Source of the DNA: Eubacteriales bacterium
GTDB lineage: Bacteria > Bacillota > Clostridia > Oscillospirales > CAG-382
Assembly: GCA_045595785.1 (NCBI GenBank)
Contig: JAZOBE010000043.1
Location: forward strand, 15,810 to 79,809
Reading direction: 5' to 3'
Length of the DNA: 64,000 nt
Under the pieces are notes generated by a model, which was not told where the DNA came from, made no database searches, and saw nothing but the letters and a program-made list of their open reading frames with translations. A program made the position numbers and the translations under genes. Shown here in pieces: positions 43,019-61,684 of this stretch; the first letter of the stretch is position 1; the number at the start of each line of letters is the position of its first letter.

Positions 43019-43105
43019 GCGGGTATGGCGGAATTGGCAGACGCGCTAGATTCAGGTTCTAGTGGGGGCAACTTCGTGTAGGTTCAAGTCCTATTACCCG
43101 CACCA
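43019..43105 (+). tRNA. tRNA-Leu (anticodon CAG), with encoded CCA
   Basis: Acceptor stem GCGGGTA/TACCCGC. Anticodon stem CTAGA/TCTAG with loop TTCAGGT. Long variable arm (class II). T-loop GGTTCAAGTCC. 3' ACCA. Confidence 0.95.
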
Positions 43106-43232: not shown

Positions 43233-43397
43233 TTAGGTATCCTTTTCAGATTGTTCCTTTTTCCACTGTTCAAATTCTTGTCTGCCTTCTTCGGATTCAA
43301 AGAAGTCTACTATGTCCGGCAGAAAGCATTTTGCCAATGCTTCTATTTCATCTTCAGGTATGTGGGATTTGAAAATGATTTTAACCTCTCTGCCCAT
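43233..43397 (-). CDS. 54-aa acidic hypothetical protein downstream of the integrase (below the ORF-track cutoff)
   Basis: ATG with SD GAGGAGGGGA, 16 nt after the integrase stop. Translation: MGREVKIIFKSHIPEDEIEALAKCFLPDIVDFFESEEGRQEFEQWKKEQSEKDT. Confidence 0.3.
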   Translation of the reverse strand: MGREVKIIFKSHIPEDEIEALAKCFLPDIVDFFESEEGRQEFEQWKKEQSEKDT

Positions 43398-43412: not shown

Positions 43413-44384
43413 TTATGAGTCTTTCAGAAATTCCGAATAGAACTTTTTAATGTCGTTGCGGTGGTGTCCCATACGCTCGCTCATCTCTTTATCAATCTGG
43501 CGTTCAGTCATACTGCTCTCGGCAATCAAGCGGCGGCGATTCTCCTGAAAGTACAGGTGTCTAAGTCCGTGCCAGGAGGGTCTTTTGATTCTGGGTTTAC
43601 AGTCAGGAGCAACATAATCACACCTATCGGGATCTACAAACTTTTTGCTATGATTGCTGCGCCAATTCTGTAACGAAGCCTTCTCCTTCTTTACGCTGTG
43701 TTTGTGGTTGTCGCAGATCAGATAATCCTTTGACTTTTTACCGCTTGCACGAAGATAAGCAACAATCTCATTTAGAATTTTCTCCTGAATCGGACGATCC
43801 ACAGGAATATCTCTTACAAGACCACCCTTGGTGTTCTTGACGTTCAACTGCTTATAGCGGATAGCATCCTCCAACTGATACAAACGGAGCGTAGCGGCTT
43901 CTTCAAAGCGTAAGCCATAGTATCTTGACAGATAGGCTTGAATCACAACATCATAGCGATTCATCGAACGGGCAACCTTGATCATCATATCAAACTCTTC
44001 GGGTAAAAACGCACGGTCAAATTCGTAGTCGTTCTTTTCGGATATACCCAAATCTCTGTTTGACGGCAGAATGTTTTTGCTGTGCGTCAGACTGTGATAG
44101 TGTCTGATTGCCGACATTTCGGTGCGGATGTAGCTGTTCAAACACTCTCTGTCGAAGAAACTTTCGATATACGGATAAATATATTTAGCCGATATATTCT
44201 TGAGATTCTTTAACTCGGTGTTTTCACCAAGCCATTTACAGAAACGATACATACCATCTTCATAGCGTTCGATACAACCGATACTGTTGATGTTACTGCT
44301 GGCTTTAAGATGATCTGCCTGCCCTATGAGATTTTTGGCTTTGTTCGCATTTCTGACCTTTCGTTGTTCTTCCGTAAGTGCCAT
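43413..44384 (-). CDS. tyrosine-type site-specific recombinase/integrase
   Basis: Start taken at MALTEEQ (SD GGAGG 7 nt upstream). Catalytic pattern: GLRFEEA (Arg), HGLRHLY (HxxR), MGHHRNDIKKFY (His/Tyr). Confidence 0.85.
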   Translation of the reverse strand: MALTEEQRKVRNANKAKNLIGQADHLKASSNINSIGCIERYEDGMYRFCKWLGENTELKNLKNISAKYIYPYIESFFDRECLNSYIRTEMSAIRHYHSLTHSKNILPSNRDLGISEKNDYEFDRAFLPEEFDMMIKVARSMNRYDVVIQAYLSRYYGLRFEEAATLRLYQLEDAIRYKQLNVKNTKGGLVRDIPVDRPIQEKILNEIVAYLRASGKKSKDYLICDNHKHSVKKEKASLQNWRSNHSKKFVDPDRCDYVAPDCKPRIKRPSWHGLRHLYFQENRRRLIAESSMTERQIDKEMSERMGHHRNDIKKFYSEFLKDS

Positions 44385-44521
44385 AGGCATTCCTCCTTTC
44401 TCTGAAATTGGCCTTTTGATTTCAGGTAAATGAAATATGAAAAAAGAGATTTGATTTGGCAAGTAAATTATGAAAGAAAATATTATCCATAAAATATACT
44501 CAAACCCGATTACCGAAAATG

Positions 44522-44550: not shown

Positions 44551-44599
44551 ATCGGTGTCAGATCTGATAATACATTTGAATTAATTTGGAGGTATGGCT

Positions 44600-45376
44600 A
44601 TGTTTATGGAAGAACGCCATCAAGAAATTGCAGATATAATAAAAGCTAATGGAAAAATCACCGTTTCGGAAATTACAAACAAATATGGTATATCCGATGA
44701 ATCAGCTCGCAGAGATCTTCGATTACTTGAACAAAAAGGGATTTGTAAGCGAACTCATGGTGGGGCTATTTTAGCTTCACAGGTTGGATTGAAAGCTCCT
44801 GCCGATAGAGATTTCAGCTCTATGCAGATTTTAGATAATTACAAAGAAATCGCACGTGTTGCCGCAAGCAAAATCAAAGAAAACGATGTTATTTATCTTA
44901 CAAGTGGTTCTTTTGGATATATAATGCTTTCATATTTGCCTATGGATATGCATTACACCGTGGTTGTGAATTCGGTGGATATAGGTAAAGAATTAAGGAA
45001 CTTTGAGAATATTGAAGTATATATGATTGGTGGCAAAATGCGACAAAGCGGTTCGATAGTGGACAGTTTTGCAACCGAATTTGTAAGTAAATTGCATTTT
45101 GACCTTTGCTTTATTACGGGTTCGGGCTTGACTGCAGATTGTGGTTTATCCAACGGTACAGACGAAACTGCAACTTTCCAACGAACTGTTATCGCCAACA
45201 GTAAAAATAAATATCTTTTAATGCCAAGTGCCAAAATCGGCAATAATGCTTTTGTTAAGGTTTGCGACGTAGATGTTTTTAACTGTGTTATCACCGATTG
45301 TGATTGCGTTGAAGATCAGATTCAAGCTATCGAAGAAAAGGGCGTAGAAGTTATTGTTGTTGAGGAATCGAAATGA
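44600..45376 (+). CDS. DeoR/GlpR-family transcriptional regulator
   Basis: N-terminal winged HTH (RHQEIADIIKANGKITVSEITNKYGISDESARRDLRLLEQKG) plus a C-terminal DeoR sugar-binding-like domain. The ATG at 44600 has better SD spacing than the one at 44594. Confidence 0.8.
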   Translation: MFMEERHQEIADIIKANGKITVSEITNKYGISDESARRDLRLLEQKGICKRTHGGAILASQVGLKAPADRDFSSMQILDNYKEIARVAASKIKENDVIYLTSGSFGYIMLSYLPMDMHYTVVVNSVDIGKELRNFENIEVYMIGGKMRQSGSIVDSFATEFVSKLHFDLCFITGSGLTADCGLSNGTDETATFQRTVIANSKNKYLLMPSAKIGNNAFVKVCDVDVFNCVITDCDCVEDQIQAIEEKGVEVIVVEESK

Positions 45377-45561
45377 CCCGCGAGCAGAAGCTACGTAATC
45401 TCATTCTTGATAAATACAATAGTCTTAGGCAGTTCGCAATGGAAGCGGATATTCCGTACAGTACGCTTATGACTTTGTTATCTCGTGATATCGGCGGTGC
45501 TTCTTTTGACGTTGTGATGAAAATATGTAAAAAACTTGAAATAGATCCATTAGAGCTATAA
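45373..45561 (+). CDS. small XRE-family HTH protein
   Basis: 62 aa containing LRQFAMEADIPYSTLMTLLS...KICKKLEIDP. An ATGA overlap couples it to the DeoR gene. Confidence 0.65.
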   Translation: MTREQKLRNLILDKYNSLRQFAMEADIPYSTLMTLLSRDIGGASFDVVMKICKKLEIDPLEL

Positions 45562-45570
45562 AAAAATTCG

Positions 45571-45609
45571 GCGGGGCAGGAGCTTCAATCTCCTGCGCCA
45601 CCTTTTAAA
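45571..45609 (+). terminator. terminator candidate
   Basis: gcaggag cttcaat ctcctgc core hairpin with flanking G/C pairs, followed by ttttaaa. Confidence 0.5.
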
Positions 45610-45629
45610 TAGAAGGTCATTTTTGCCGT

Positions 45630-46087
45630 CATTCCGAAAGGATGGTCATAATCATATCGGAAATGTTTATTCAGCCGACTGTTTGATGTTTAATTGGTAT
45701 CATTCCGAAGTGTTATCCTTTGAACATCAAACAGCCGGAACACGCCGTAAGGCGTGCATACATAAATCAATAACAAATCCAAAGGGAATCATCTGTATAT
45801 GTATATCATCTTAAATCCGTTCCGAAATTATTTATCATTTTTCATTCCGAAATGAGCGCAAAGCATAGTTCTCCCATTGGCAGTTTTATCGGTTTTACCT
45901 GCCGTTACTCCCGTTTTCTTTTTCAAGGGTTCCGGAATGCTTTGCGAACAGGGGCTTTTTGTTCGCCACCGGGCTCAGTTTCTATTTCCCTGCGAGAAAT
46001 AGAAACTGGCCCAACGATGGTCATATCTATCATTCCGAAGGGTAAATCATAAGTCATTCCGATTCGCAAATCATTTTTATTCCGAAG
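45630..46087 (+). repeat. dispersed same-strand copies of the decamer TCATTCCGAA in non-coding DNA
   Basis: Exact copies start at 45630, 45701, 45843 and 46031. One- or two-mismatch copies start at 45818 (ccgttccgaa), 46055 (tcattccgat) and 46078 (ttattccgaa). A palindromic ttccggaa lies at 45931. Confidence 0.85.
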
Positions 46088-46104
46088 AGAGAATCATATT
46101 AAAT

Positions 46105-46510
46105 TGTTCCCATTAAAGTTGGTCAGTACTATGAGGCATACGCCCCAACGCATACCTGCCGCTTGACAGGTGCCCTGACGGGCTACGCCTACACCACACA
46201 CTAGCTATTAGATAGTCTACCGCTGAACTCGGCAGGGTGGCGGGGTTTCGATCTTCCATTGAAAGCCCATAACGTTGTCTGCTCAAAGGCAGATAAGCGG
46301 CTCTTCGCAGATGAGATAATTTAGTACGACAAGCTTCGTACAATTTTTGCTGCTCAACAAGTGAGCTTATTATCTCAACGCCCCGTTGTCTTCCGCACGG
46401 GTGGCTGTCAGCAAATGGTGCAATATACGTACAAAACCGTTGCACATCCATACGCTCTTCCATTTACCATACGTCGGTCACTCCAGCCATACTGTGACCG
46501 CACCTGTTTT
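46105..46510 (-). ncRNA. candidate structured RNA of unknown class (strand assignment tentative)
   Basis: A GC-rich block inside AT-rich non-coding DNA. Many nested complementary segments are visible, for example gagataat...attatctc enclosing hairpins gctca/tgagc and gtacga/tcgtac, also cctgccg...cggcagg, gccc/gggc and aggtatgcg/cgtatgcct. The only ORF there has a non-protein-like composition. Confidence 0.3.
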
Positions 46511-46517
46511 GAACATC

Positions 46518-46544
46518 TACAATTTGACTTGCTTTTTCAACATT
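46518..46544 (-). other. 8-codon mini-ORF (MLKKQVKL) with a strong SD, immediately upstream of the candidate RNA
   Basis: AGGAGGAATTGAA ATG TTG AAA AAG CAA GTC AAA TTG TAG. A second AGGAGGAATT copy lies 24 nt further upstream. Confidence 0.3.
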
Positions 46545-46681
46545 TCAATTCCTCCTATCTGTATTACTGTAATTCCTCCTTAGTGTATTTAAAGAGTTCG
46601 TATGTAATATGGAAGAGAGCATTGCGAAATGCAAGTAAAAATACAATTTAATTGGAAAATGAGAAGAAGGATTAACGAGAA

Positions 46682-46710
46682 AGGCAGAGAGTGGTTTACT
46701 CTCTGCCTTC
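46682..46710. terminator. hairpin (possible terminator or element boundary)
   Basis: aaggcagagag tggttta ctctctgcctt forms a perfect 11-bp stem. Confidence 0.45.
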
Positions 46711-47097
46711 TTCATGTGAAATTTAATAATTCAAAAAGTCATAAGTGTCGAGTTTGCTGATATATTATAGAATTGACATAATAATCATGTAAATTCTTCT
46801 CAAACCATGCAATATAACATTGATTCTAATTTAGGTTCAAAATATAATATGCAGATTCGTTAAATGCTTATAGAACAGTTTTACAAAAAGAACATTCTGG
46901 TATTGAATATGTCAAAATAAAAATTCTAACCGATGAGAAAATATGCCCAAATGAAAAAGTACATTTGATGGGATAACAGCACGGTTCAAAAACGATAATC
47001 ATATCACGCAAGAAAACCAGTGTATATAACTTTCACACAAAATTCTAGTTCTTATATTTCCGTTCAAAATAGCATTGCAATAATCTCTTCAAAACTA

Positions 47098-47979
47098 TTA
47101 TATTAATTTGAATAAATCAATTGTTTCTCCCATCTGGTTGTTATTTACGTTTACATCATTAATAGCAGGTGCGCTCTGCAAACTATTACCTTCAGAAACC
47201 ATAACTTTTTGCTTTTGCTTGACATGTTCCTTTATTTCTCTAAAAATAGTTTCATAATCTTCTGGTTTAATCATCTTGTACTTCTCGCTAAATCCAACAG
47301 GCGACTTTCCAATGGGAAACATGTCACGTAGCCTAGACATGTCAGCTCCTTCGCCAATGCCTAACGGAAAAATATGCAAATCGCCATTTATGACACGCTC
47401 ACGAATATTGGCAAACTCTGGGCGAGGGTCATCGGTTGGAGTTCCATCAGTCATAAATACGAGAATAGGCGTGTAATAATCATTATCGGCATTTCTTAAT
47501 TCGTTACGCATTTCATCTAATTGCGCAAGTGCAGTTCGTATTCCATCTCCCATGGAAGTTTCAGCCTTTTCAACTGAACATTCACAAGAATGAATACTCA
47601 AAGCTTCACAATCTAAAAAATCATATTTTACATTAGCAAATCGGCTATATGTAACAATGGATACAGCGACTTGACGACATAATTCCGTATCTCGTTTTAA
47701 ATCAGTTAAAAGACCACAAAGAGTCTCGTTCATTTTGTCAATCTTCTTATAATGTGCGTATCCTGGCCGAATATCATTTAAACTAAAATAGTTTACATTA
47801 TGTCCATCCGAGAATCCCCTGCCTGTATTGCGTTTCAAGCCGCCCTCTTGTATCCACCATTCATCCATAGACTGACTTACATCTACGCAAAAACAAATAA
47901 GTGCACGTGGGTCCCCATTGATTAGCAATCTACGCTGTTGGCTAAAATATTCACTTGAATAGTATGCTTCGTTTGCCAT
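47098..47979 (-). CDS. TerY-like von Willebrand factor A (vWA) domain protein
   Basis: MIDAS DVSQS (D33, S35, S37), later ETSMG and FMTDGTPTD. 293 aa, cytoplasmic (no signal peptide). SD GAGGAG. This is the last gene of the three-gene operon. Confidence 0.8.
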   Translation of the reverse strand: MANEAYYSSEYFSQQRRLLINGDPRALICFCVDVSQSMDEWWIQEGGLKRNTGRGFSDGHNVNYFSLNDIRPGYAHYKKIDKMNETLCGLLTDLKRDTELCRQVAVSIVTYSRFANVKYDFLDCEALSIHSCECSVEKAETSMGDGIRTALAQLDEMRNELRNADNDYYTPILVFMTDGTPTDDPRPEFANIRERVINGDLHIFPLGIGEGADMSRLRDMFPIGKSPVGFSEKYKMIKPEDYETIFREIKEHVKQKQKVMVSEGNSLQSAPAINDVNVNNNQMGETIDLFKLI

Positions 47980-48001
47980 AATCGTCTCCTCATTTTAATT
48001 A

Positions 48002-50152
48002 TTAATATCTTCGGTTGCGACATTTAGGACATCGAGTCGGTAAATTAAGTCCTTTCTTTTTATAAAACTCAACTTCACCATTAGTAATGGGGAAACGACA
48101 ACCACAGTATCGATTGCTGCAAGAACGCCACATATAAATATCATTATTCCATTTTTCGCGTTCGCGCTTGGCATCATTCAACTTGATTTTGAAACATTCA
48201 CCGCAAACATTAACCTTAAGATTGCGTAGTTTATCTTCAAATTCTCGCATTTGATATATTGGAACTTCACGACCACAATTGCCACATTTCGTAGTACGTT
48301 TTTTACAATCTCTACACCAACGTTGATCATACCAATTAAAATCCATTTTCCCTATATCGTGAACAATTTTGGTACGATTCGTATAATAAAACTCTCGTCC
48401 GCAACACTCGCATTTAAAATGCACTGCTGACTTATCGTTAGCACAAGGAAGGCATATCCTATATCCTCTTTCCCATATATTAATCGTTTCTTTATGAACT
48501 TGAACATTATGCATAAAGTAAAAATTAGGATGTTCTTGTCCGCAATGTTTGCAACGTACAAAAATCCTCTTATTATCTCTACGAAAAGTTTTGGGAAATA
48601 TATTGCATGAATCGGATTTATCTAAAGTAGATAGACTTCTATTAAAATCTCTAACTATATTGAGCCAATCTTTCGCCTTTAATCTTTTGTTAGGAACAGC
48701 ATATTTACCATTTGGGTTAAAAGTATTAAAAAAGGCCTCGCACATTCTATACGGTAGATGATCCCATACAATACGCCATATACCACTAGGACGCTCTGCA
48801 TCTACAGAACGCCTCATACCACCAATACCGAACGGAAAGGTCATGTTGATAATACTAATTCGTTCATCTGTCCCTTTTGATTTAGCATACGGAAATTTCC
48901 CTGGCATCATTAGCATAAATGTCAACAACGCAACTTGATAATTTTCTTGATCTGCTGTATAAAGAAGACGCGGATAATCATCACGTAACAATTCGGGAGG
49001 GGTAAATGTTTGATTTCGTGAAATAGCTGGATATCCTTCAATTTGCCAACAATCTGTATCAACGAAATATACCTCATCAGGTTTTTCAACATATATTGTG
49101 GCTGGATTTATACATCCGAAGTATAACCCATAATTATGCATACTGCAAATTTTATCAAGAATCGTTATTGCTAACGTACAAAGATCTTGCCTATCCCATC
49201 GTGGAAAATATTGAAACAATCCCGTGACTCCATTTAATACTGAACGTGTCAGCTGTATCCCTTTAGAAGCTGGCACCAATATACCGACAAATTCTCCAAT
49301 ATCATTTTTTAAGATATCTACCGGCCAACATACCCCTGGTATTTCTACTTTTCCCTTTATCATCCTTCGAGCTTTATTCTCCCAAATGTCTATTCGAAGC
49401 GATTTTAAAGTGTATATTTTTGCAAAAAATCCACTATCATTAGTTGCATAGGTTATTGAAGTATGGTCTGTCATCATTGCATCTTTTAAATAAAAAACAG
49501 TACGGCAACACTCTGCTATAACCCTTTCACCATTGGTTGGAACACTGCTAGTTGCATTAACGACCGAATTAATAGATACAAGTTCAGTAGTTAACTTAAA
49601 AAGATTTTCAGTTTTGTATTCAATTTGCTTTTTTGTGTAAAGTGCTTGAAGTTGCCCTTCTTGATTCATACCATACCATCGCAATTGTAATCCTTTAGAA
49701 TTTGCCGATGATTTAGCATCGTAACCATTATCACCGCTAGCGGTAAGAAAAACAATCTTCCAATCAAGATATTGGTCAGCAATTTTCTCAAAGCATGCAT
49801 TTAGATCATTCCCCGCAAGTTCTCGATAATCTTCAGAAATCAGATCCTTACATTCTTCTTTAGTGAGTTTCATTATTTCAAAGCTCGGCACATAAAAAAA
49901 TTTCGTGGTATGCATAGAGTCTTTATTAACATGCCACTCATTTGCAAATTTAGAGAAAGCAGTACTTTTAACAAATGAAGCATCTACAAACACTCGAATT
50001 TGTTGTGATTTTATCAAATCACTTATTGTTGTCCCAAATTTTGGCCAATTCTCGAGCTTATTATTTGATTTTTCATTATGCGATAAAGAAGGTTCTTTTC
50101 TTTCGTTCTCATTTTTTATCTCTGCTTTATTGAATAAAGTTGTAAATGCCAT
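48002..50152 (-). CDS. multidomain protein: PIN-like N-terminus, protein-kinase-like core with a substituted catalytic loop, four C-terminal zinc-ribbon units
   Basis: Kinase-like landmarks: FAK245, E258, H339-NYGLYFG-C347, VD365TD, TPPE387, MPGKFPY. Acidic PIN-like pattern: VFVD57AS, FE92I, GND116, SGD141. CxxC pairs: C534/C537-C567/C570, C581/C584-C613/C616, C623/C626-C650/C653, C683/C685-C708/C711. The last unit resembles the F..T..E..FY..KG...P.RC..CR zinc-ribbon. Confidence 0.65.
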   Translation of the reverse strand: MAFTTLFNKAEIKNENERKEPSLSHNEKSNNKLENWPKFGTTISDLIKSQQIRVFVDASFVKSTAFSKFANEWHVNKDSMHTTKFFYVPSFEIMKLTKEECKDLISEDYRELAGNDLNACFEKIADQYLDWKIVFLTASGDNGYDAKSSANSKGLQLRWYGMNQEGQLQALYTKKQIEYKTENLFKLTTELVSINSVVNATSSVPTNGERVIAECCRTVFYLKDAMMTDHTSITYATNDSGFFAKIYTLKSLRIDIWENKARRMIKGKVEIPGVCWPVDILKNDIGEFVGILVPASKGIQLTRSVLNGVTGLFQYFPRWDRQDLCTLAITILDKICSMHNYGLYFGCINPATIYVEKPDEVYFVDTDCWQIEGYPAISRNQTFTPPELLRDDYPRLLYTADQENYQVALLTFMLMMPGKFPYAKSKGTDERISIINMTFPFGIGGMRRSVDAERPSGIWRIVWDHLPYRMCEAFFNTFNPNGKYAVPNKRLKAKDWLNIVRDFNRSLSTLDKSDSCNIFPKTFRRDNKRIFVRCKHCGQEHPNFYFMHNVQVHKETINIWERGYRICLPCANDKSAVHFKCECCGREFYYTNRTKIVHDIGKMDFNWYDQRWCRDCKKRTTKCGNCGREVPIYQMREFEDKLRNLKVNVCGECFKIKLNDAKREREKWNNDIYMWRSCSNRYCGCRFPITNGEVEFYKKKGLNLPTRCPKCRNRRY

Positions 50153-50168
50153 TTTTCCTCCATTAACA

Positions 50169-51431
50169 CTAATTCACAATAAAAGATTTTATTTCATCGA
50201 GTAATGCTCTGGTATTGGGTTCGCAATTAGGAATCGATTCCAACTCATAATATATATTTTTTACTTTTTGTAGTTCGCTGTTAAAACCACTTTTTGATTT
50301 ATTGTAAAAGAATAACAATAAACTTCGACCAATTGTTTCATTATGATTAGATTGCCAAACATTTTCTGCTTCTCTCACCCATTCGCCTTTCATAAATTCA
50401 TGCCGCTGGTTATGTGCAAGATTTTTTACTAGATTAATAAGCCTGTTTGTTTTATTGTCTAAACTATCATAATCACAAATCATTGGAAAATAATACTGTC
50501 TATCGATGTTATATACATATGCAGAGTCTTCAATAAAACCAGTTTTAGGTGACCAACGATAAGCTCGAACATAAGTGTTATTATCATTTCGCCATTCATA
50601 ATATATTACGCCAATATCTGAGTAGGAGTCTCCCGATTGTGGTGCAGATTTACCACATGCGATACTCGGAATCGTTCGATTAGGCAAGGAAATTGTCGAA
50701 ATAGGATTATTGGCATATTTATGCATATCTCCATGAAGATATGCACTAATGCATCTTCGATCTATAACGCTGTGTATTCTGTCAATGTGACTTGAAAATA
50801 GCGTTTCAATCCAATGATGTCCTAACATTAATGTGGGAAGATTAATGTCAATTGAACAGTTCGATAATGAATTAATGTCAACTATTTGTTTATGCATATC
50901 TCCATCACTAATTAATGCAGTGTTAAGCAACAAAATATTTATCAGATTGTTCCAAACGATACAATTAACGCCGCTAGGATTAGTAACTCTCCCGTCTGTC
51001 ACGCCAGAGCTGGCATAAAAGTTACGCGCAAAAATGTCATATTCAACAAATCCATCATACAGTGACTTTGTGCCATTTAAGTATTGCGAGTATATATTAT
51101 AGTTACTTTCAGAATGATCACATATAGTCCTAATAGCTTCGCGCCTTCCATCATAGTTATTCACATCATGATTTCCAGGAACTAAAAATGTATCTTTTTT
51201 ATCGATATTAAATGCTGTTAAAATCGACTCTAAATATTTCATTGAAACATTAAACTCTGTTTTATATTTTGCATGGCGAAAATCTCCCGTTGCTATAAGA
51301 AATTGTGGGGAGATTTTTTTTGCTAATTTGTTATAATCTTCTGAAATAAAAGTTGTATCTGCTTCTGAAAATACATGTAAATCAGATATTTGTAGCCAAG
51401 ATGCATTAACATGTTTGCGATTGGTATTCAT
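50169..51431 (-). CDS. calcineurin-like metallophosphoesterase with a C-terminal extension
   Basis: Motifs in canonical order: ISDLH (DxH), ATGDFRH (GD), PGNHD (GNHD), LGHH, YLHGDMH (GHxH-like). An unassigned helical tail of about 120 aa follows. Confidence 0.85.
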   Translation of the reverse strand: MNTNRKHVNASWLQISDLHVFSEADTTFISEDYNKLAKKISPQFLIATGDFRHAKYKTEFNVSMKYLESILTAFNIDKKDTFLVPGNHDVNNYDGRREAIRTICDHSESNYNIYSQYLNGTKSLYDGFVEYDIFARNFYASSGVTDGRVTNPSGVNCIVWNNLINILLLNTALISDGDMHKQIVDINSLSNCSIDINLPTLMLGHHWIETLFSSHIDRIHSVIDRRCISAYLHGDMHKYANNPISTISLPNRTIPSIACGKSAPQSGDSYSDIGVIYYEWRNDNNTYVRAYRWSPKTGFIEDSAYVYNIDRQYYFPMICDYDSLDNKTNRLINLVKNLAHNQRHEFMKGEWVREAENVWQSNHNETIGRSLLLFFYNKSKSGFNSELQKVKNIYYELESIPNCEPNTRALLDEIKSFIVN

Positions 51432-59865: not shown

Positions 59866-60074
59866 ACATACCTCCAACTTAAATGATTTTTATAAATTAT
59901 ACCACAGCAAAGATAAATTATCAATATACATAAAATCCTATGAGACTGAAATATTTTCTGCAATAGCTATACTCCGAATAAACTCACTTTTTATTAAAAC
60001 TGCTTTTTACTTGCCAAATTGTATCTTGTTTTTCATATTAACTTCGCATTCTTAAAAACAGAAAGGTGGAGTTT

Positions 60075-60221
60075 ATGTTAGGCAAAAGAAAAAGACTGCA
60101 ACACAGGCACATCAATACGGTGTTTGCGTTGGGCAAGGCAAAAACAGAACAAATGAAAGGGCGTGATAAAACTATGTTACAAAAGAAAACTGAATATTGG
60201 CAGGAGGTGAACAGCGAATGA
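60075..60221 (+). CDS. 48-aa basic hypothetical protein translationally coupled to the serine recombinase (below the ORF-track cutoff)
   Basis: SD AAAGGTGGAG before the ATG at 60075. The stop TGA overlaps the recombinase ATG (ATGA). Confidence 0.3.
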   Translation: MLGKRKRLQHRHINTVFALGKAKTEQMKGRDKTMLQKKTEYWQEVNSE

Positions 60222-61684
60222 CCGCAGTAATTTACGCAAGATATTCCTCAGACAGTCAGCGTGAGGAAAGCATTGACGGTCAGCTTCGTGAGTGTATGGC
60301 ATTTGCGGAAAGACAAGGTATCTCCGTAATTGATACCTACATTGACAGAGCATTATCTGCAAAAACGGATAACCGACCGCAATTTCAGAAAATGATTAAA
60401 GACAGTTCTAAGAAGAAGTTTGATATAATCATTGTTTGGAAATTGGATCGTTTTGCAAGAAATCGCTACGACTCGGCTCGTTACAAAAATGCACTAAAAA
60501 AGAACGATGTCAAAGTGATCTCGGCAACCGAAAATATATCTGCCGGTTCGGAGGGTATATTGCTTGAATCTGTGCTGGAAGGTATGGCAGAATACTACTC
60601 CGCAGAGCTTGCTGAAAAGGTTACAAGAGGTCTTACGGAAAACGCCTTAAAGTGCAAATTCAACGGTGGTACAGTTCCTATTGGATATGTCATTAACAAT
60701 GAGCAGATGTTTGAAATTGATCCGTTAAAAGCTCCCTGGGTACTTGAAGCATTCAAATTATACGACAAAGGTAAGACCATTAAAGAGATCGTAACTCTGT
60801 TAAATACAAAGGGATTGACTACTTCTCTCGGGAGCAAGATTTCCATCAACATTGTGACGACTATGCTAAAGAATAGGCGTTACATCGGTGAATATAAGTT
60901 TCAAGAGATTATTCACGAGAACGGTATTCCGCAGATAGTTCCAAAAGATTTGTTCAACAAGGTACAGGAGCAGTTGCAGAAAAACAAAAAAGCCGCCGCA
61001 AGGCACAAAGCCGAGGACGACTATCTGTTGACTACTAAGCTGTACTGTGGCAAGTGTGGTGTCTATATGACAGGAGAAAGCGGTACGGGCAGGAATGGTA
61101 CGGTGCACCGCTACTATAAATGCAACAATACAAAGTACAAGCACTCCTGTGATAAAAAGACTGTTAAAAAGGAATGGATCGAAGACATTGTTGTTCGATA
61201 CACCAAGGAAATGCTATTACAGGACGATGTAATCGAGGACATTGCAAACATCGTACTCCGCGTAGCCAGCACCGAAAACACATCTGTCACCCTTCTGAAA
61301 CAACAATTGAGCGAAACAGAAAGAGCGATAGCCAATCTGATGAACGCTATCGAACAGGGAATCATTACAACTACCACGAAACAGCGTTTGATTAAACTTG
61401 AAACTACCAAAGAAGAATTGGAATTAAAGATTATTAAAGAAGAACTGAAACACCCTCCTCTTACCAAAGAGGGACTAATCTTCTGGTTGCACAGATTTCG
61501 TAGCTTAGATACAACGAAAAAAGAACACAAGCAGAGACTCATTGACAGCTTCGTGAATGCAGTGTATGTATATGACGATAAGCTGGTTTTGACCTTTAAC
61601 TACAACGAAGCAAATACTACCGTTACTCTTGATGAGGTAAATGGTTCGATTATAGAATGCTCTGGTGCACCAAAAAAGAAGTAA
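60218..61684 (+). CDS. large serine recombinase
   Basis: Start at MTAVIYARYSSDSQ (catalytic Ser region, SD AGGAGGTG). Contains a resolvase domain, a recombinase domain, a zinc ribbon CGKCG...YYKCNN, and a C-terminal coiled coil. Confidence 0.9.
   Translation: MTAVIYARYSSDSQREESIDGQLRECMAFAERQGISVIDTYIDRALSAKTDNRPQFQKMIKDSSKKKFDIIIVWKLDRFARNRYDSARYKNALKKNDVKVISATENISAGSEGILLESVLEGMAEYYSAELAEKVTRGLTENALKCKFNGGTVPIGYVINNEQMFEIDPLKAPWVLEAFKLYDKGKTIKEIVTLLNTKGLTTSLGSKISINIVTTMLKNRRYIGEYKFQEIIHENGIPQIVPKDLFNKVQEQLQKNKKAAARHKAEDDYLLTTKLYCGKCGVYMTGESGTGRNGTVHRYYKCNNTKYKHSCDKKTVKKEWIEDIVVRYTKEMLLQDDVIEDIANIVLRVASTENTSVTLLKQQLSETERAIANLMNAIEQGIITTTTKQRLIKLETTKEELELKIIKEELKHPPLTKEGLIFWLHRFRSLDTTKKEHKQRLIDSFVNAVYVYDDKLVLTFNYNEANTTVTLDEVNGSIIECSGAPKKK

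What the first reader, a model, noticed from the sequence alone, without database searches (positions are those of the whole stretch)
46105..46560. GC-rich, heavily self-complementary block with an upstream SD plus 8-codon mini-ORF: candidate structured RNA or leader
Within AT-rich intergenic DNA, a block of about 400 nt is conspicuously GC-richer. It contains many nested complementary pairs, read here on the minus strand:
- gagataat...attatctc closing a three-way junction with hairpins gctca/tgagc and gtacga/tcgtac;
- a long-range pair cctgccg...cggcagg;
- gccc gtca gggc;
- aggtatgcg ttgggg cgtatgcct;
- ggtcac...gtgacc.

Directly upstream on the same strand are two copies of AGGAGGAATT. The second serves as a perfect SD for ATG TTG AAA AAG CAA GTC AAA TTG TAG (46544 down to 46518).

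The only long ORF overlapping the block (46113-46463, minus strand) is R/S/C-rich with no SD, so a protein product is unlikely. A leader peptide followed by a structured RNA is reminiscent of translation-sensing attenuators, yet no downstream gene follows. I could not match the block to any riboswitch, tmRNA, RNase P or T-box consensus that I know.
Basis: seen in the sequence. Interest (0 to 1): 0.55.

Follow-up and report, generated by a model that had tools for sequence, protein, structure and literature searches.

The report
Integrase-linked 1-kb structured noncoding RNA
The flagged block is the front half of a roughly 1,040-nucleotide folded RNA gene that matches no catalogued RNA family and that, in gut and rumen bacteria, almost always sits just upstream of one family of DNA-integrating enzymes; its function is unknown.

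Summary
The GC-rich block is real, but it is only the 5' half of a larger unit. That unit is a ~1,040-nt non-coding transcription unit on the minus strand (about 46600 to 45561). It has a conserved sigma-70-type promoter, a 5' AGGAGG, several supported helices and an intrinsic terminator.

I recovered 26 distinct core sequences from Oscillospirales and Selenomonadales MAGs and from gut metagenomes. Compensatory base changes support the helices:
- core: 14 of 41 pairs changed on both sides, against 5.8±1.5 in shuffles;
- 3' half and terminator: 14 of 52, against 4.0±1.4.

Conserved G·U pairs fix the strand. No Rfam family matches.

The 116-aa ORF is not coding. The 8-codon mini-ORF is not conserved: it has 2 codons in most homologues and is absent from one clade.

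The RNA carries 3–8 sense-strand copies of UUCGGAAUGA. It lies directly upstream of a diverged Xer/IntI-like tyrosine integrase, which inserts at the CCA end of tRNA and tmRNA genes. The genes upstream are often restriction or other defence-like genes and differ between loci.

Function is unknown. My best guess is a stable, trans-acting RNA that binds protein and serves this island family.

The parts
46606..46634 (-). Promoter-like site of the RNA gene: -35 TTGCAT (46634-46629), 17-nt spacer, -10 CATATT (46611-46606). The start of transcription is inferred at about 46600.
   Evidence: Read. It is conserved in all homologues that reach this far, and the variants keep the key -10 positions (CATATT, TATATT, AATATT, TATAGT, CATACT). 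Homology between loci begins exactly here.
46547..46580 (-). Two AGGAGGAATT copies near the 5' end, at 46580-46571 and 46556-46547. Proposed role (inferred): ribosome loading that stabilises the 5' end.
   Evidence: D7. At least one AGGAGG is kept in every intact homologue, including the clade that lacks the mini-ORF.
46517..46543 (-). Mini-ORF of 8 codons in this window. It is not a conserved coding feature.
   Evidence: In the alignment it has 2 codons (ATG TTG TAA) in most sequences and 8-10 codons in some. L010 reads ATA in place of ATG, and the L020/L029/L059 clade has no mini-ORF.
46300..46510 (-). Clade-specific 5' domain. It holds the GGTCAC/GTGACC hairpin (46499-46476), a long hairpin at about 46467-46408, the CCCGU/ACGGG hairpin, and a three-way junction closed by GAGATAAT/ATTATCTC (46376-46313) with two hairpins.
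   Evidence: Pair counts; RNAalifold. In the L020/L029/L059 clade this domain is replaced by unrelated sequence. It is partly deleted in L042 and L016.
46092..46262 (-). Core shared by all clades: a helix GGG.UUUC/GAAA.CCC, two three-way junctions, a hairpin, and a ~40-nt invariant single-stranded stretch (CAUAGUACUGACCAACUUUAACGGGAACAAUUUAAUAUGA).
   Evidence: Alignments A7 and A10. In one search, 97.7% of cells are paired and 14 of 41 pairs changed on both sides, against 5.8±1.5 in shuffles (0/500) and 1-6 in the slid controls. Covariance model R1 finds a single copy in the window.
45629..46097 (-). Array of six UUCGGAAUGA motifs (one mismatch allowed), with extended consensus AUGA-N4-5-C-N-U-UUCGGAAUGA. 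They lie at 46086-46077, 46063-46054, 46039-46030, 45851-45842, 45709-45700 and 45638-45629.
   Evidence: Each homologue has 3-8 copies, or 2 in the internally deleted L017 copy. All are on the sense strand. Outside the RNA only a few one-mismatch matches turn up in about 200 kb of flanks.
45970..46014 (-). Long hairpin GGNNCAGUUUCUAUUUC / GAAAUAGAAACUGNNCC.
   Evidence: I8. In one search, helix 1 has 16 pairs, 6 of them changed on both sides, and is 95% paired.
45675..45757 (-). Hairpin GCACGCC/GGCGUGU (45757-45739) and a 16-bp hairpin CCGGCUGUUUGAUGUU/AACAUCAAACAGUCGG (45737-45675) that carries a motif copy in its loop.
   Evidence: I1. In one search, helices 2-4 are 97-99% paired, with G.U <-> A-U <-> G-C exchanges.
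45559..45602 (-). Intrinsic terminator: stem GGUGGCGCAGGAG / CUCCUGCCCCGCC, followed by GAAUUUUUUU.
   Evidence: In one search, helix 5 has 13 pairs, 6 of them changed on both sides (for example GGCCGCAACAGCAG and GGCUGCGGCGGAAG in distant homologues). The U-run is always kept.
44594..45561 (+). Variable slot between the RNA terminator and the integrase promoter. Here it holds a DeoR-family regulator (44594-45376) and a small HTH_26 protein (45373-45561).
   Evidence: Pfam. In L010, L011 and L013 the slot is about 100 nt and empty; in L014 it holds a different HTH gene.
43413..44466 (-). Partner gene: a 324-aa tyrosine recombinase (43413-44387) with its own promoter-like site (TTACTTGCCAAAT at 44466-44454) and an AGGAGGAAT ribosome-binding site.
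   Evidence: weak XerD/XerC matches; invariant R, K, H, R, H, Y; two-domain fold; best matches XerA, IntI, XerH, Tn1549 Int, Cre. It lies directly downstream of the RNA in 9 distinct loci plus this window.
43019..43102 (+). tRNA gene with a long variable arm, next to the 3' end of the integrase gene; the likely attachment site of the island.
   Evidence: Homologous integrases sit about 370 nt from tRNA-Ala or tmRNA, with the junction at the CCA end.

Best explanation
Window ~46600->45561 (minus strand) is an independently transcribed, ~1,040-nt structured non-coding RNA gene. It forms a conserved two-gene module with the tyrosine integrase downstream. The module sits at the integrase end of small integrative islands that insert at the CCA end of tRNA and tmRNA genes.

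Proposed working (inferred, not shown):
- The RNA is made from its own sigma-70-type promoter.
- A ribosome bound at the 5' AGGAGG, with or without a 2-codon start-stop ORF, protects it from 5'-exonuclease decay, as STAB-SD-type stabilisers do in Firmicutes.
- It folds into a conserved core of two three-way junctions.
- It displays 3-8 single-stranded UUCGGAAUGA motifs as a multi-copy binding platform for a protein, either the integrase or a host factor.
- It therefore acts in trans as a scaffold or sponge that tunes the island's life cycle (integration, excision or maintenance).

My confidence by step: an RNA gene with this architecture, about 0.85; a functional link to the integrase or island, about 0.7; a protein-binding scaffold or sponge mechanism, about 0.3.
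For: Transcription unit:
- The -35/-10 pair keeps a 17-nt spacer and promoter-compatible variation.
- The terminator hairpin has 6 pairs changed on both sides and an invariant U-run.

Structure:
- Core: 41 pairs, 97.7% paired, 14 changed on both sides against 5.8±1.5 in shuffles (0/500), and 1-6 in the slid controls.
- 3' half and terminator: 52 pairs, 97% paired, 14 against 4.0±1.4.
- G.U pairs that are invariant or nearly so would be A.C mismatches on the other strand.

Non-coding:
- No ORF is conserved.
- Substitutions fall 121/124/103 by codon position, and indels are not multiples of three.
- The only protein 'homologues' are the same spurious ORF.

Link to the integrase:
- Every intact integrase of 55-95% identity with enough upstream sequence has the RNA directly upstream on the same strand.
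- No other gene is shared between loci.
- The core has 85% mean column identity, even among loci whose integrases are only about 55% identical.

Motif array: 3-8 copies per RNA (2 in the deleted L017 copy), all on the sense strand, with only a few one-mismatch matches in the flanks. Copy number changes through duplications.

5' stabiliser idea: the AGGAGG is kept while the ORF is not. The mechanism is established for B. subtilis hbs and for cryIIIA STAB-SD (PMC5737220, PMC4113751, PMC3997798).

Not a cis leader: the integrase has its own promoter, and opposite-strand genes are inserted between the two in the window and in L014.
Against: - There are no expression data.
- No binding partner has been identified, and the motif matches no binding site that I could test.
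- Single-sequence folding energies are ordinary.
- The compensatory changes come from few independent lineages: mainly the L019/L029/L059 clade, L042 and the L013/L045/L061 group. The statistics therefore overstate independence.
- L017/L018 carry the identical integrase with an internally deleted RNA. The RNA is thus not needed to keep the integrase gene intact, at least in the short term.
- Readthrough of the terminator into the integrase gene cannot be excluded.
Confidence: 0.4

Rival explanations
1. A self-assembling 'ornate' large RNA of the GOLLD/ROOL type. In this reading it is a mobile-element RNA that works through its own three-dimensional or multimeric architecture, for example during phage infection or island induction, and not as a protein sponge.
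For: - It shares their genomic habit: large, multi-junction, on mobile DNA next to tRNA genes. PMC5737381 describes this for GOLLD and ROOL.
- Those RNAs form RNA-only cages (PMC12286853).
- The genes upstream are often defence-like.
Against: No sequence or structure match to the ROOL, GOLLD, OLE, raiA or HEARO models, even at E<=10. The long, partly unstructured 3' half with its repeated linear motif looks more like a binding platform. No self-complementary kissing motifs were looked for.
Confidence: 0.17
2. A cis-acting leader. In this reading the 1-kb RNA is a long 5' leader whose terminator is read through under some condition, by protein-mediated or ligand-mediated antitermination at the repeat array, to raise integrase expression.
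For: - In L010, L011 and L013 the terminator is only about 100 nt upstream of the integrase ribosome-binding site.
- Arrays of short repeats upstream of a terminator are typical of protein-mediated attenuation, such as TRAP or HutP (established knowledge).
- The RNA and the integrase always share a strand.
Against: - The integrase has its own conserved promoter between the terminator and the start codon.
- In the window and in L014, genes on the opposite strand lie between the RNA and the integrase.
- I found no antiterminator alternative to the terminator stem.
- The RNA persists, little changed, where the integrase is lost or decayed (L001, L009, L016).
Confidence: 0.13
3. An RNA cofactor or guide of the recombinase. 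In this reading the RNA binds the integrase and contributes to site choice or directionality, as bridge or seek RNAs do for IS110/IS1111 recombinases or as an RNA counterpart of Xis.
For: - Strict co-occurrence and co-orientation with one diverged integrase family that lacks an arm-binding domain.
- No recognisable Xis is universally present: the small ORFs downstream of the integrase differ between loci.
- The identical integrase is found at two different targets, tRNA-Ala and tmRNA.
Against: - The two targets share the same TCCACCA 3' end, so recognition by the protein is enough to explain them.
- No match of 11 nt or more, direct or complementary, was found between the RNA and the att flank beyond scattered 11-14-nt matches that follow no consistent pattern.
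- The RNA core is nearly invariant across loci that use different tRNA genes.
- L017/L018 retain the integrase with a gutted RNA.
Confidence: 0.1
4. A DNA-level element. In this reading the conserved block works as DNA, for example as a folded single-strand origin or priming site, an oriT, iterons of a replication origin, or accessory recombinase-binding sites, and any transcription is incidental.
For: - Three motif copies are spaced 23-24 bp apart, which looks like iterons.
- Xer and IntI-type recombinases are known to use folded single-stranded DNA, as in CTX phage attP and integron attC (established knowledge). The closest folds include IntI.
- Covariation alone cannot separate RNA from ssDNA (PMC5737381).
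Against: - A conserved promoter and a canonical intrinsic terminator with a U-run bracket the conserved region exactly.
- The 5' AGGAGG is conserved.
- The island's actual crossover point lies about 370 nt beyond the integrase gene at the tRNA CCA end, not here.
- No rep, relaxase or other transfer gene is shared between loci.
- The motifs occur on one strand only.
Confidence: 0.08
5. A type III antitoxin-like or otherwise processed repeat RNA. In this reading the repeat array is cut into units that neutralise a toxin or effector.
For: The order promoter - repeats - terminator - protein gene resembles ToxIN-type loci (established knowledge). The neighbouring genes are often defence-like.
Against: - Repeat spacing is irregular (13 to about 180 nt), not tandem 34-45-nt units.
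- The downstream gene is a recombinase with an intact catalytic set, not a ToxN or AbiE-type toxin.
- The upstream genes differ in every locus.
Confidence: 0.04
6. A decayed protein-coding gene, or a leader-peptide attenuator.
For: A 116-aa ORF overlaps the block, and gene callers have called it in metagenomes. An SD plus mini-ORF exists in the window.
Against: - The ORF is broken in most homologues, and its substitutions show no codon-position bias.
- It has no Pfam match.
- The mini-ORF is not conserved.
Confidence: 0.02

Closest known systems
GOLLD and ROOL RNAs (large ornate bacterial ncRNAs)
   Same: Very large for a bacterial ncRNA. It has multi-junction conserved structure, is carried on mobile DNA, lies close to tRNA genes, and has no known function (PMC5737381, PMC12286853).
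   Different: No match to their Rfam models. It is about 1,040 nt long. It is linked to one tyrosine-integrase family rather than to prophage lysis regions. It carries a 5' AGGAGG and an array of a 10-nt linear motif. Its 5' domain is swapped between clades.
Protein-sequestering RNAs with repeated motifs (CsrB/RsmZ type)
   Same: Many copies of a short motif that contains GGA, in one stand-alone, terminator-ended RNA. Copy number varies between homologues.
   Different: The motif is a longer, strictly conserved UUCGGAAUGA, not A(N)GGA in hairpin loops. A large conserved structured core precedes the array. The RNA is encoded on a mobile island. No CsrA link was tested.
IS110/IS1111 bridge (seek) RNAs
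   Same: A structured ncRNA encoded immediately upstream of, and co-inherited with, a site-specific recombinase on a mobile element (PMC11208158).
   Different: The recombinase here is a tyrosine recombinase, not a DEDD/serine-type one. The RNA is about five times longer. No target or donor complementarity was found, and the att core is a generic tRNA CCA end.
STAB-SD / ribosome-mediated 5' stabilisers of Firmicute RNAs
   Same: A strong AGGAGG near the 5' end whose conservation does not depend on any conserved ORF. This fits a ribosome block to RNase J1 (PMC5737220, PMC4113751, PMC3997798).
   Different: Here it would protect a non-coding RNA. Often two copies are present, along with a 2-codon start-stop ORF. 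No stability data exist.
Abundant ncRNAs of phage satellites and phages (PLE IIR transcript, ICP1 ~800-nt ncRNA, P4 CI RNA)
   Same: Mobile elements that express a large or abundant non-coding transcript from an ORF-less gap near their regulatory or integrase end (PMC7567579).
   Different: No sequence relation. No antisense complementarity to the integrase leader beyond shuffled controls. The host range is Clostridia and Negativicutes.
Leader-peptide transcription attenuators
   Same: An SD plus a short ORF, followed by structured RNA and a terminator.
   Different: The peptide is not conserved and is mostly 2 codons. The structured part is about 1 kb. The terminator is followed by a separately promoted gene.

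Membership tests
Any Rfam 15 family (including ROOL, GOLLD, OLE, raiA, HEARO, riboswitches, T-box, tmRNA, RNase P, group I/II introns) | Match to the family covariance model at its gathering score | tested here: not met
   In the whole window only the tRNA passes. At E<=10 over 45000-47500 there are only chance miRNA or sRNA matches. The same holds for 8 homologous loci and for the L029 variant.
GOLLD/ROOL-like large mobile-element RNAs (as a kind, not a family) | Large (>500 nt), multi-junction conserved structure, located on mobile DNA near tRNA genes | tested here: met
   The unit is about 1,040 nt. Two three-way junctions in the core and a third in the 5' domain are supported by covariation. 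A tRNA or tmRNA lies 0.3-6 kb downstream in several loci.
Leader-peptide attenuator | Conserved leader ORF whose translation is sensed | tested here: not met
   The mini-ORF has 2 codons in most homologues and 8-10 in some. It has no ATG in L010 and is absent from the L020/L029/L059 clade.
Leader-peptide attenuator | Terminator directly controls a contiguous downstream gene | tested here: not met
   The integrase has its own promoter, and opposite-strand genes lie between the two in the window and in L014.
Independent RNA gene | Conserved promoter and intrinsic terminator bracketing the conserved region | tested here: met
   The promoter hexamers and 17-nt spacing are conserved. The terminator has 13 pairs, 6 of them with compensatory changes, plus a U-run. 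Transcription itself is not testable with these tools.
Protein-coding gene (ORF 46113-46463) | ORF kept open in homologues, with substitutions concentrated at third codon positions | tested here: not met
   The ORF is broken in most homologues. Substitutions fall 121/124/103 over the codon positions, with indels that break the frame.
Type III toxin-antitoxin antitoxin RNA | Regular tandem repeats of about 34-45 nt next to a ToxN/AbiQ-type endoribonuclease gene | tested here: not met
   The motifs are 10 nt long with irregular spacing. The neighbour is a tyrosine recombinase.
IS110-type bridge RNA | Partner is a DEDD/RuvC-like plus Tnp-domain recombinase | tested here: not met
   The partner has the tyrosine-recombinase catalytic set and fold.
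IS110-type bridge RNA | RNA loops complementary to the target and donor DNA | tested here: inconclusive
   No consistent match of 11 nt or more between the RNA and the att-side flank. Shorter split guides could not be assessed, because the other island end (attR) was not identified.
Csr/Rsm-type sponge RNA | Multiple GGA-containing sites, typically in hairpin loops, bound by CsrA/RsmA | tested here: inconclusive
   There are 3-8 GGA-containing UUCGGAAUGA motifs. Only one sits in a hairpin loop (helix 4). Protein binding is not testable here.
Tyrosine recombinase (partner gene) | Catalytic R-K-H-R-H/W-Y residues and a two-domain core-binding plus catalytic fold | tested here: met
   R160, K187, H273, R276, H308 and Y317 are invariant. 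The AlphaFold model has pLDDT 89.6. Its best PDB matches are XerA, IntI, XerH, Tn1549 Int and Cre. There are weak XerD/XerC HMM hits.
Integron attC / folded-ssDNA recombination site | Imperfect inverted repeat with conserved R/L boxes and extrahelical bases, located at cassette boundaries where crossover occurs | not tested
   Not examined in detail. The mapped junction of the island lies at the tRNA/tmRNA CCA end, about 370 nt past the integrase gene and not inside this block.

The most novel reading that the evidence does not exclude
The RNA is an obligate functional partner of its tyrosine integrase. It could be an RNA subunit that controls directionality, assembly or site use of a Xer/IntI-like recombinase that has no arm-binding domain and no universal Xis. 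That would make this the first RNA-dependent tyrosine recombinase system, carried by small islands whose upstream genes are often defence-like.
Probability: 0.1. Interest if true: 0.92.

Novelty: new variant of a known kind. Interest (0 to 1): 0.68.

Why it matters
At about 1 kb this would be one of the largest structured bacterial non-coding RNAs outside rRNA, and it is absent from Rfam 15. Unlike GOLLD and ROOL it has a fixed protein neighbour, one diverged integrase family. That gives a concrete handle for experiments on what large RNAs on mobile elements do.

It also marks a family of small tRNA/tmRNA-targeting islands. In these gut and rumen Firmicutes the genes upstream include restriction-modification, TIR and other defence-like systems.

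If the RNA regulates or assists recombination, it would add a new layer to site-specific recombination.

Tried and rejected
- Rfam scans at gathering and permissive thresholds, on the window and on homologues, found nothing.
- blastn against the phage and plasmid collections found nothing. A first loop-based pattern in viral contigs also found nothing.
- Single-sequence folding z-scores were uninformative on both strands.
- Covariation on the first 11 close homologues was uninformative, because they were too similar. It became useful only after I baited more distant loci with the spurious ORF, with the integrase and with a degenerate DNA pattern.
- Group II intron idea, prompted by GUGCG near the 5' end: rejected. 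There is no Rfam intron match, and the GUGCG region is absent from one clade.
- Minimal 2.3-kb element bounded at the RNA promoter: rejected. I found no att-like direct repeat between the promoter-proximal flank and the flank beyond the integrase.
- Guide-like identity or complementarity between the RNA and the att flank: none that is consistent.
- Antisense pairing with the integrase 5' UTR: no better than shuffled controls.
- Conserved small ORF inside the RNA: none.
- Universal small protein partner downstream of the integrase: the small ORFs differ between loci.
- Pseudoknot between the GUCA loop and CUGAC in the invariant single strand: the loop varies while the partner does not (alignment).
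- An HTH regulator is frequent next to the module but is not universal.
Full report
**What is in the window.** Read on the minus strand, the stretch between the vWA gene (47098-47979) and the HTH gene (45373-45561) is about 1.5 kb with no convincing gene. The flagged block is GC-richer than its upstream flank: 0.45-0.52 against 0.27-0.31. The two AGGAGGAATT copies are there, at 46580-46571 and 46556-46547. The 8-codon mini-ORF (46543-46517) and the 116-aa ORF (46113-46463) are also there. Rfam finds only a tRNA at 43019-43102 in the whole window. At E<=10 it finds nothing meaningful in 45000-47500. Folding energy of the block (z = -1.1) and of the later-defined core (z = -0.5) is ordinary compared with shuffles. 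The single sequence therefore does not show more structure than chance would give.

**Finding relatives.** blastn against phages and plasmids gave nothing. Gene callers often call ORFs inside RNA genes, so I used the 116-aa ORF as bait. It has three 'homologues', all the same spurious ORF. Their contigs and a genome-collection scan gave loci in MAGs of Ruminococcus, Acutalibacteraceae, Oscillospiraceae, other Clostridia and one Selenomonadales. blastn shows that the conserved unit is far larger than the flagged block. It runs from window ~46640 to ~45560, at 83-92% identity, and the flanks differ in every locus. Baiting with the neighbouring integrase and with a degenerate pattern taken from invariant columns added relatives at 64-80% identity. 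In total there are 26 distinct core sequences.

**It is a transcription unit.** Homology between loci starts exactly at a promoter-like TTGCWT-17 nt-CATATT. Its variants (TATATT, AATATT, TATAGT, CATACT) keep the positions critical for a -10 element. It ends at a strong hairpin followed by GAAUUUUUU. Six of the 13 stem pairs change on both sides in distant homologues (GGCGGCGCAGGAG, GGCCGCAACAGCAG, GGCUGCGGCGGAAG), while the U-run stays. The inferred RNA runs from ~46600 to ~45561, about 1,040 nt.

**It is not coding.** No ORF is conserved on either strand. Within the 116-aa ORF, substitutions fall 121/124/103 over the three codon positions, and most homologues carry indels that break the frame. 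Pfam finds nothing. The mini-ORF is ATG-TTG-TAA in most sequences and 8-10 unrelated codons in a few. It reads ATA in L010 and is absent from the L020/L029/L059 clade. At least one 5' AGGAGG is always kept.

**Structure.**
- A core shared by all clades (46262-46092) folds into a short helix, two three-way junctions and a hairpin. A ~40-nt invariant single strand follows.
- On 24 sequences, 97.7% of cells are paired. Fourteen of 41 pairs change on both sides, against 5.8±1.5 in column shuffles (0/500) and 1-6 when partners are slid.
- Several G.U pairs are invariant or nearly so. The fold therefore belongs to the minus strand.
- The 3' half has three long hairpins and the terminator: 52 pairs, 97% paired, 14 changed on both sides against 4.0±1.4.
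The three-way junction gagataat/attatctc and its hairpins, and ggtcac/gtgacc, hold up.
- That 5' domain is replaced by unrelated sequence in the L020/L029/L059 clade and is partly deleted in L042 and L016.
The long-range cctgccg/cggcagg has no compensatory change and breaks in one clade, whereas two local helices using the same bases do covary. aggtatgcg/cgtatgcct is 76% paired, against 97.5% for the overlapping hairpin.
- A caveat applies to all of this. The compensatory changes come from a handful of lineages, so the shuffle statistics overstate independence.

**Repeat array.** From the end of the core onwards the RNA carries UUCGGAAUGA, with extended consensus AUGA-N4-5-C-N-U-UUCGGAAUGA. 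The window has six copies and other homologues have 3-8; the internally deleted L017 copy has 2. All lie on the sense strand. Only a few one-mismatch matches occur in about 200 kb of flanks. Copy number changes through local duplication. I found no general pairing partner for the motif, so it is most simply a single-stranded recognition site.

**Genomic logic.**
- The only gene shared between loci is a 324-aa tyrosine recombinase directly downstream on the same strand.
- It keeps the full catalytic set.
- It gives only weak XerD/XerC HMM matches.
- It models as a two-domain recombinase without an arm-binding domain. Its closest folds are XerA, IntI, XerH, Tn1549 Int and Cre.
- The family is small, 44 clusters.
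- Every intact member of 55-95% identity with enough upstream sequence has the RNA. A 47%-identical relative does not.
- The integrase has its own promoter, of the same type as the RNA's. A variable slot between the RNA terminator and that promoter is empty in L010, L011 and L013. It holds DeoR plus HTH_26 in the window and another HTH gene in L014.
- The very same integrase protein lies about 370 nt from tRNA-Ala in some contigs and from tmRNA in others. The sequence diverges exactly at TGGTGGA, the CCA end. The window copy lies next to a long-arm tRNA, and L010 and L048 lie next to tRNA-Leu.
- Upstream of the RNA the genes differ in each locus and are often defence-like: EcoRII and SacI restriction-modification systems, GmrSD, cytosine methylases and a TIR protein. 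Here they are a vWA - kinase-like zinc-ribbon - metallophosphoesterase set with a PADLOC effector hit.
- Decayed copies exist: L015, L016, L009, L017 and the L046 group.

**How it most likely works.** What is shown: a conserved, structured, strand-specific, promoter-to-terminator unit tied to one integrase family. What is inferred:
1. The 5' AGGAGG, with or without a start-stop ORF, loads a ribosome and shields the RNA from 5'-exonucleolytic decay. This is established for Firmicute mRNAs (PMC5737220, PMC4113751, PMC3997798).
2. The motif array is a multivalent binding platform, so the RNA would act in trans as a scaffold or sponge for the integrase or a host protein.

I tested several alternatives and they lost ground.
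- Antisense control of the integrase leader: no better than shuffles.
- Guide-like matches to the att flank: none.
- A minimal element bounded at the promoter: no att repeat.
- A cis leader: the integrase has its own promoter and genes are interposed.

A DNA-level role (folded ssDNA, iterons) cannot be excluded by covariation alone. It does not, however, explain the promoter, the terminator and the one-strand motif bias.

**Comparison with what is known.** In kind it resembles GOLLD and ROOL: large structured RNAs on mobile DNA near tRNA genes, with unknown function (PMC5737381, PMC12286853). It fails their covariance models and differs in its integrase linkage, motif array and 5' ribosome-binding site. 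It resembles bridge RNAs only in lying next to a recombinase. A search of the held literature found no RNA-dependent tyrosine recombinase. I therefore file it as a new class within the known kind 'large mobile-element ncRNAs'. The more radical reading, an RNA partner of a tyrosine recombinase, remains open at about 10%.

Noticed in passing
window 47098-51431 (-): An operon of a vWA protein, a 716-aa kinase-like protein with C-terminal treble-clef zinc ribbons, and a metallophosphoesterase. The phosphoesterase hits a PADLOC 'Effector' model and NCBIfam's anti-phage phosphoesterase (weakly). This is a candidate defence system carried by the island. The arrangement resembles a TerY-phosphatase-kinase triad, a comparison from memory that I did not test.
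   Followed up: partly
window 59995-61684 (+): The same promoter type as those of the RNA and the integrase (TTTTTACTTGCCAAAT-17-CATATT, at about 60003-60045) precedes a small ORF and a 495-aa large serine recombinase. This may be a second mobile element, or the far end of the island region, using the same promoter signature.
   Followed up: partly
L019:2600-3150, L020:2542-3092, L022:1346-1896: An identical 324-aa integrase (P0038) is found next to tRNA-Ala(cgc) and next to two different tmRNA genes. The sequences are identical up to ...GTCCATT and diverge at TGGTGGA. The crossover region is therefore the shared TCCACCA 3' end.
   Followed up: yes
L020:341-640, L029:3676-3990, L059: In the clade whose integrase is about 55% identical, the first ~270 nt of the RNA (mini-ORF, GGUCAC hairpin, three-way junction) are replaced by unrelated sequence. 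The promoter, the first AGGAGG, the core and the 3' half are kept. This is a domain swap within an RNA gene.
   Followed up: partly
L017/L018:4299-4850: An internally deleted RNA keeps the promoter, about 100 nt of the 5' end and the last ~150 nt. It sits upstream of an integrase identical to the one that carries the full RNA in L019/L020. An IS (rve) element and a SacI-type restriction-modification system lie upstream.
   Followed up: partly
L046:6169-6341, L050, L051, L054, L057: A ~190-nt fragment of the RNA, holding the second half of the core and two motifs, survives in an intergenic region. By eye there is a ParA-like remnant upstream and an AAA-type ATPase gene downstream; neither was checked with Pfam. 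It appears to be a relic.
   Followed up: no
L015:9848-11136: The RNA copy is truncated after ~290 nt by what appears, by eye, to be the C-terminal two-thirds of a large serine recombinase gene. This suggests later rearrangement at the same site.
   Followed up: partly
window 43233-43397 (-); L016:3487-3699; L023:2724-2891; L029:6082-6288: A small ORF (54-70 aa) follows the integrase in several loci. In L016 and L023 it shares a motif of the type I-ELPQ-IIES-ARF; the window and L029 versions only loosely resemble it. It has no NCBIfam match (window copy). Other loci have unrelated small ORFs there, including a Tn916-Xis-like one in L014 and L028.
   Followed up: partly
alignment A9, columns ~125-175 (window 46556-46517): Where the mini-ORF is long, it reads M-x-K-K-x-x-G-N-S-S or M-L-K-K-Q-x-x-L. 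Most copies have a stop at codon 3. This looks like a decaying or dispensable peptide behind a conserved ribosome-binding site.
   Followed up: partly
L011:2979-3063 (-): A ZMP/ZTP riboswitch match above its gathering score, next to the homologue of the window's GDSL-lipase gene. It is unrelated to the finding.
   Followed up: no
L061 (IMG/VR contig): The only 'viral' contig that carries the RNA shows no phage genes in the 11 kb examined. The neighbours are giant dockerin, LRR and collagen-repeat surface proteins, so the viral label is doubtful.
   Followed up: partly
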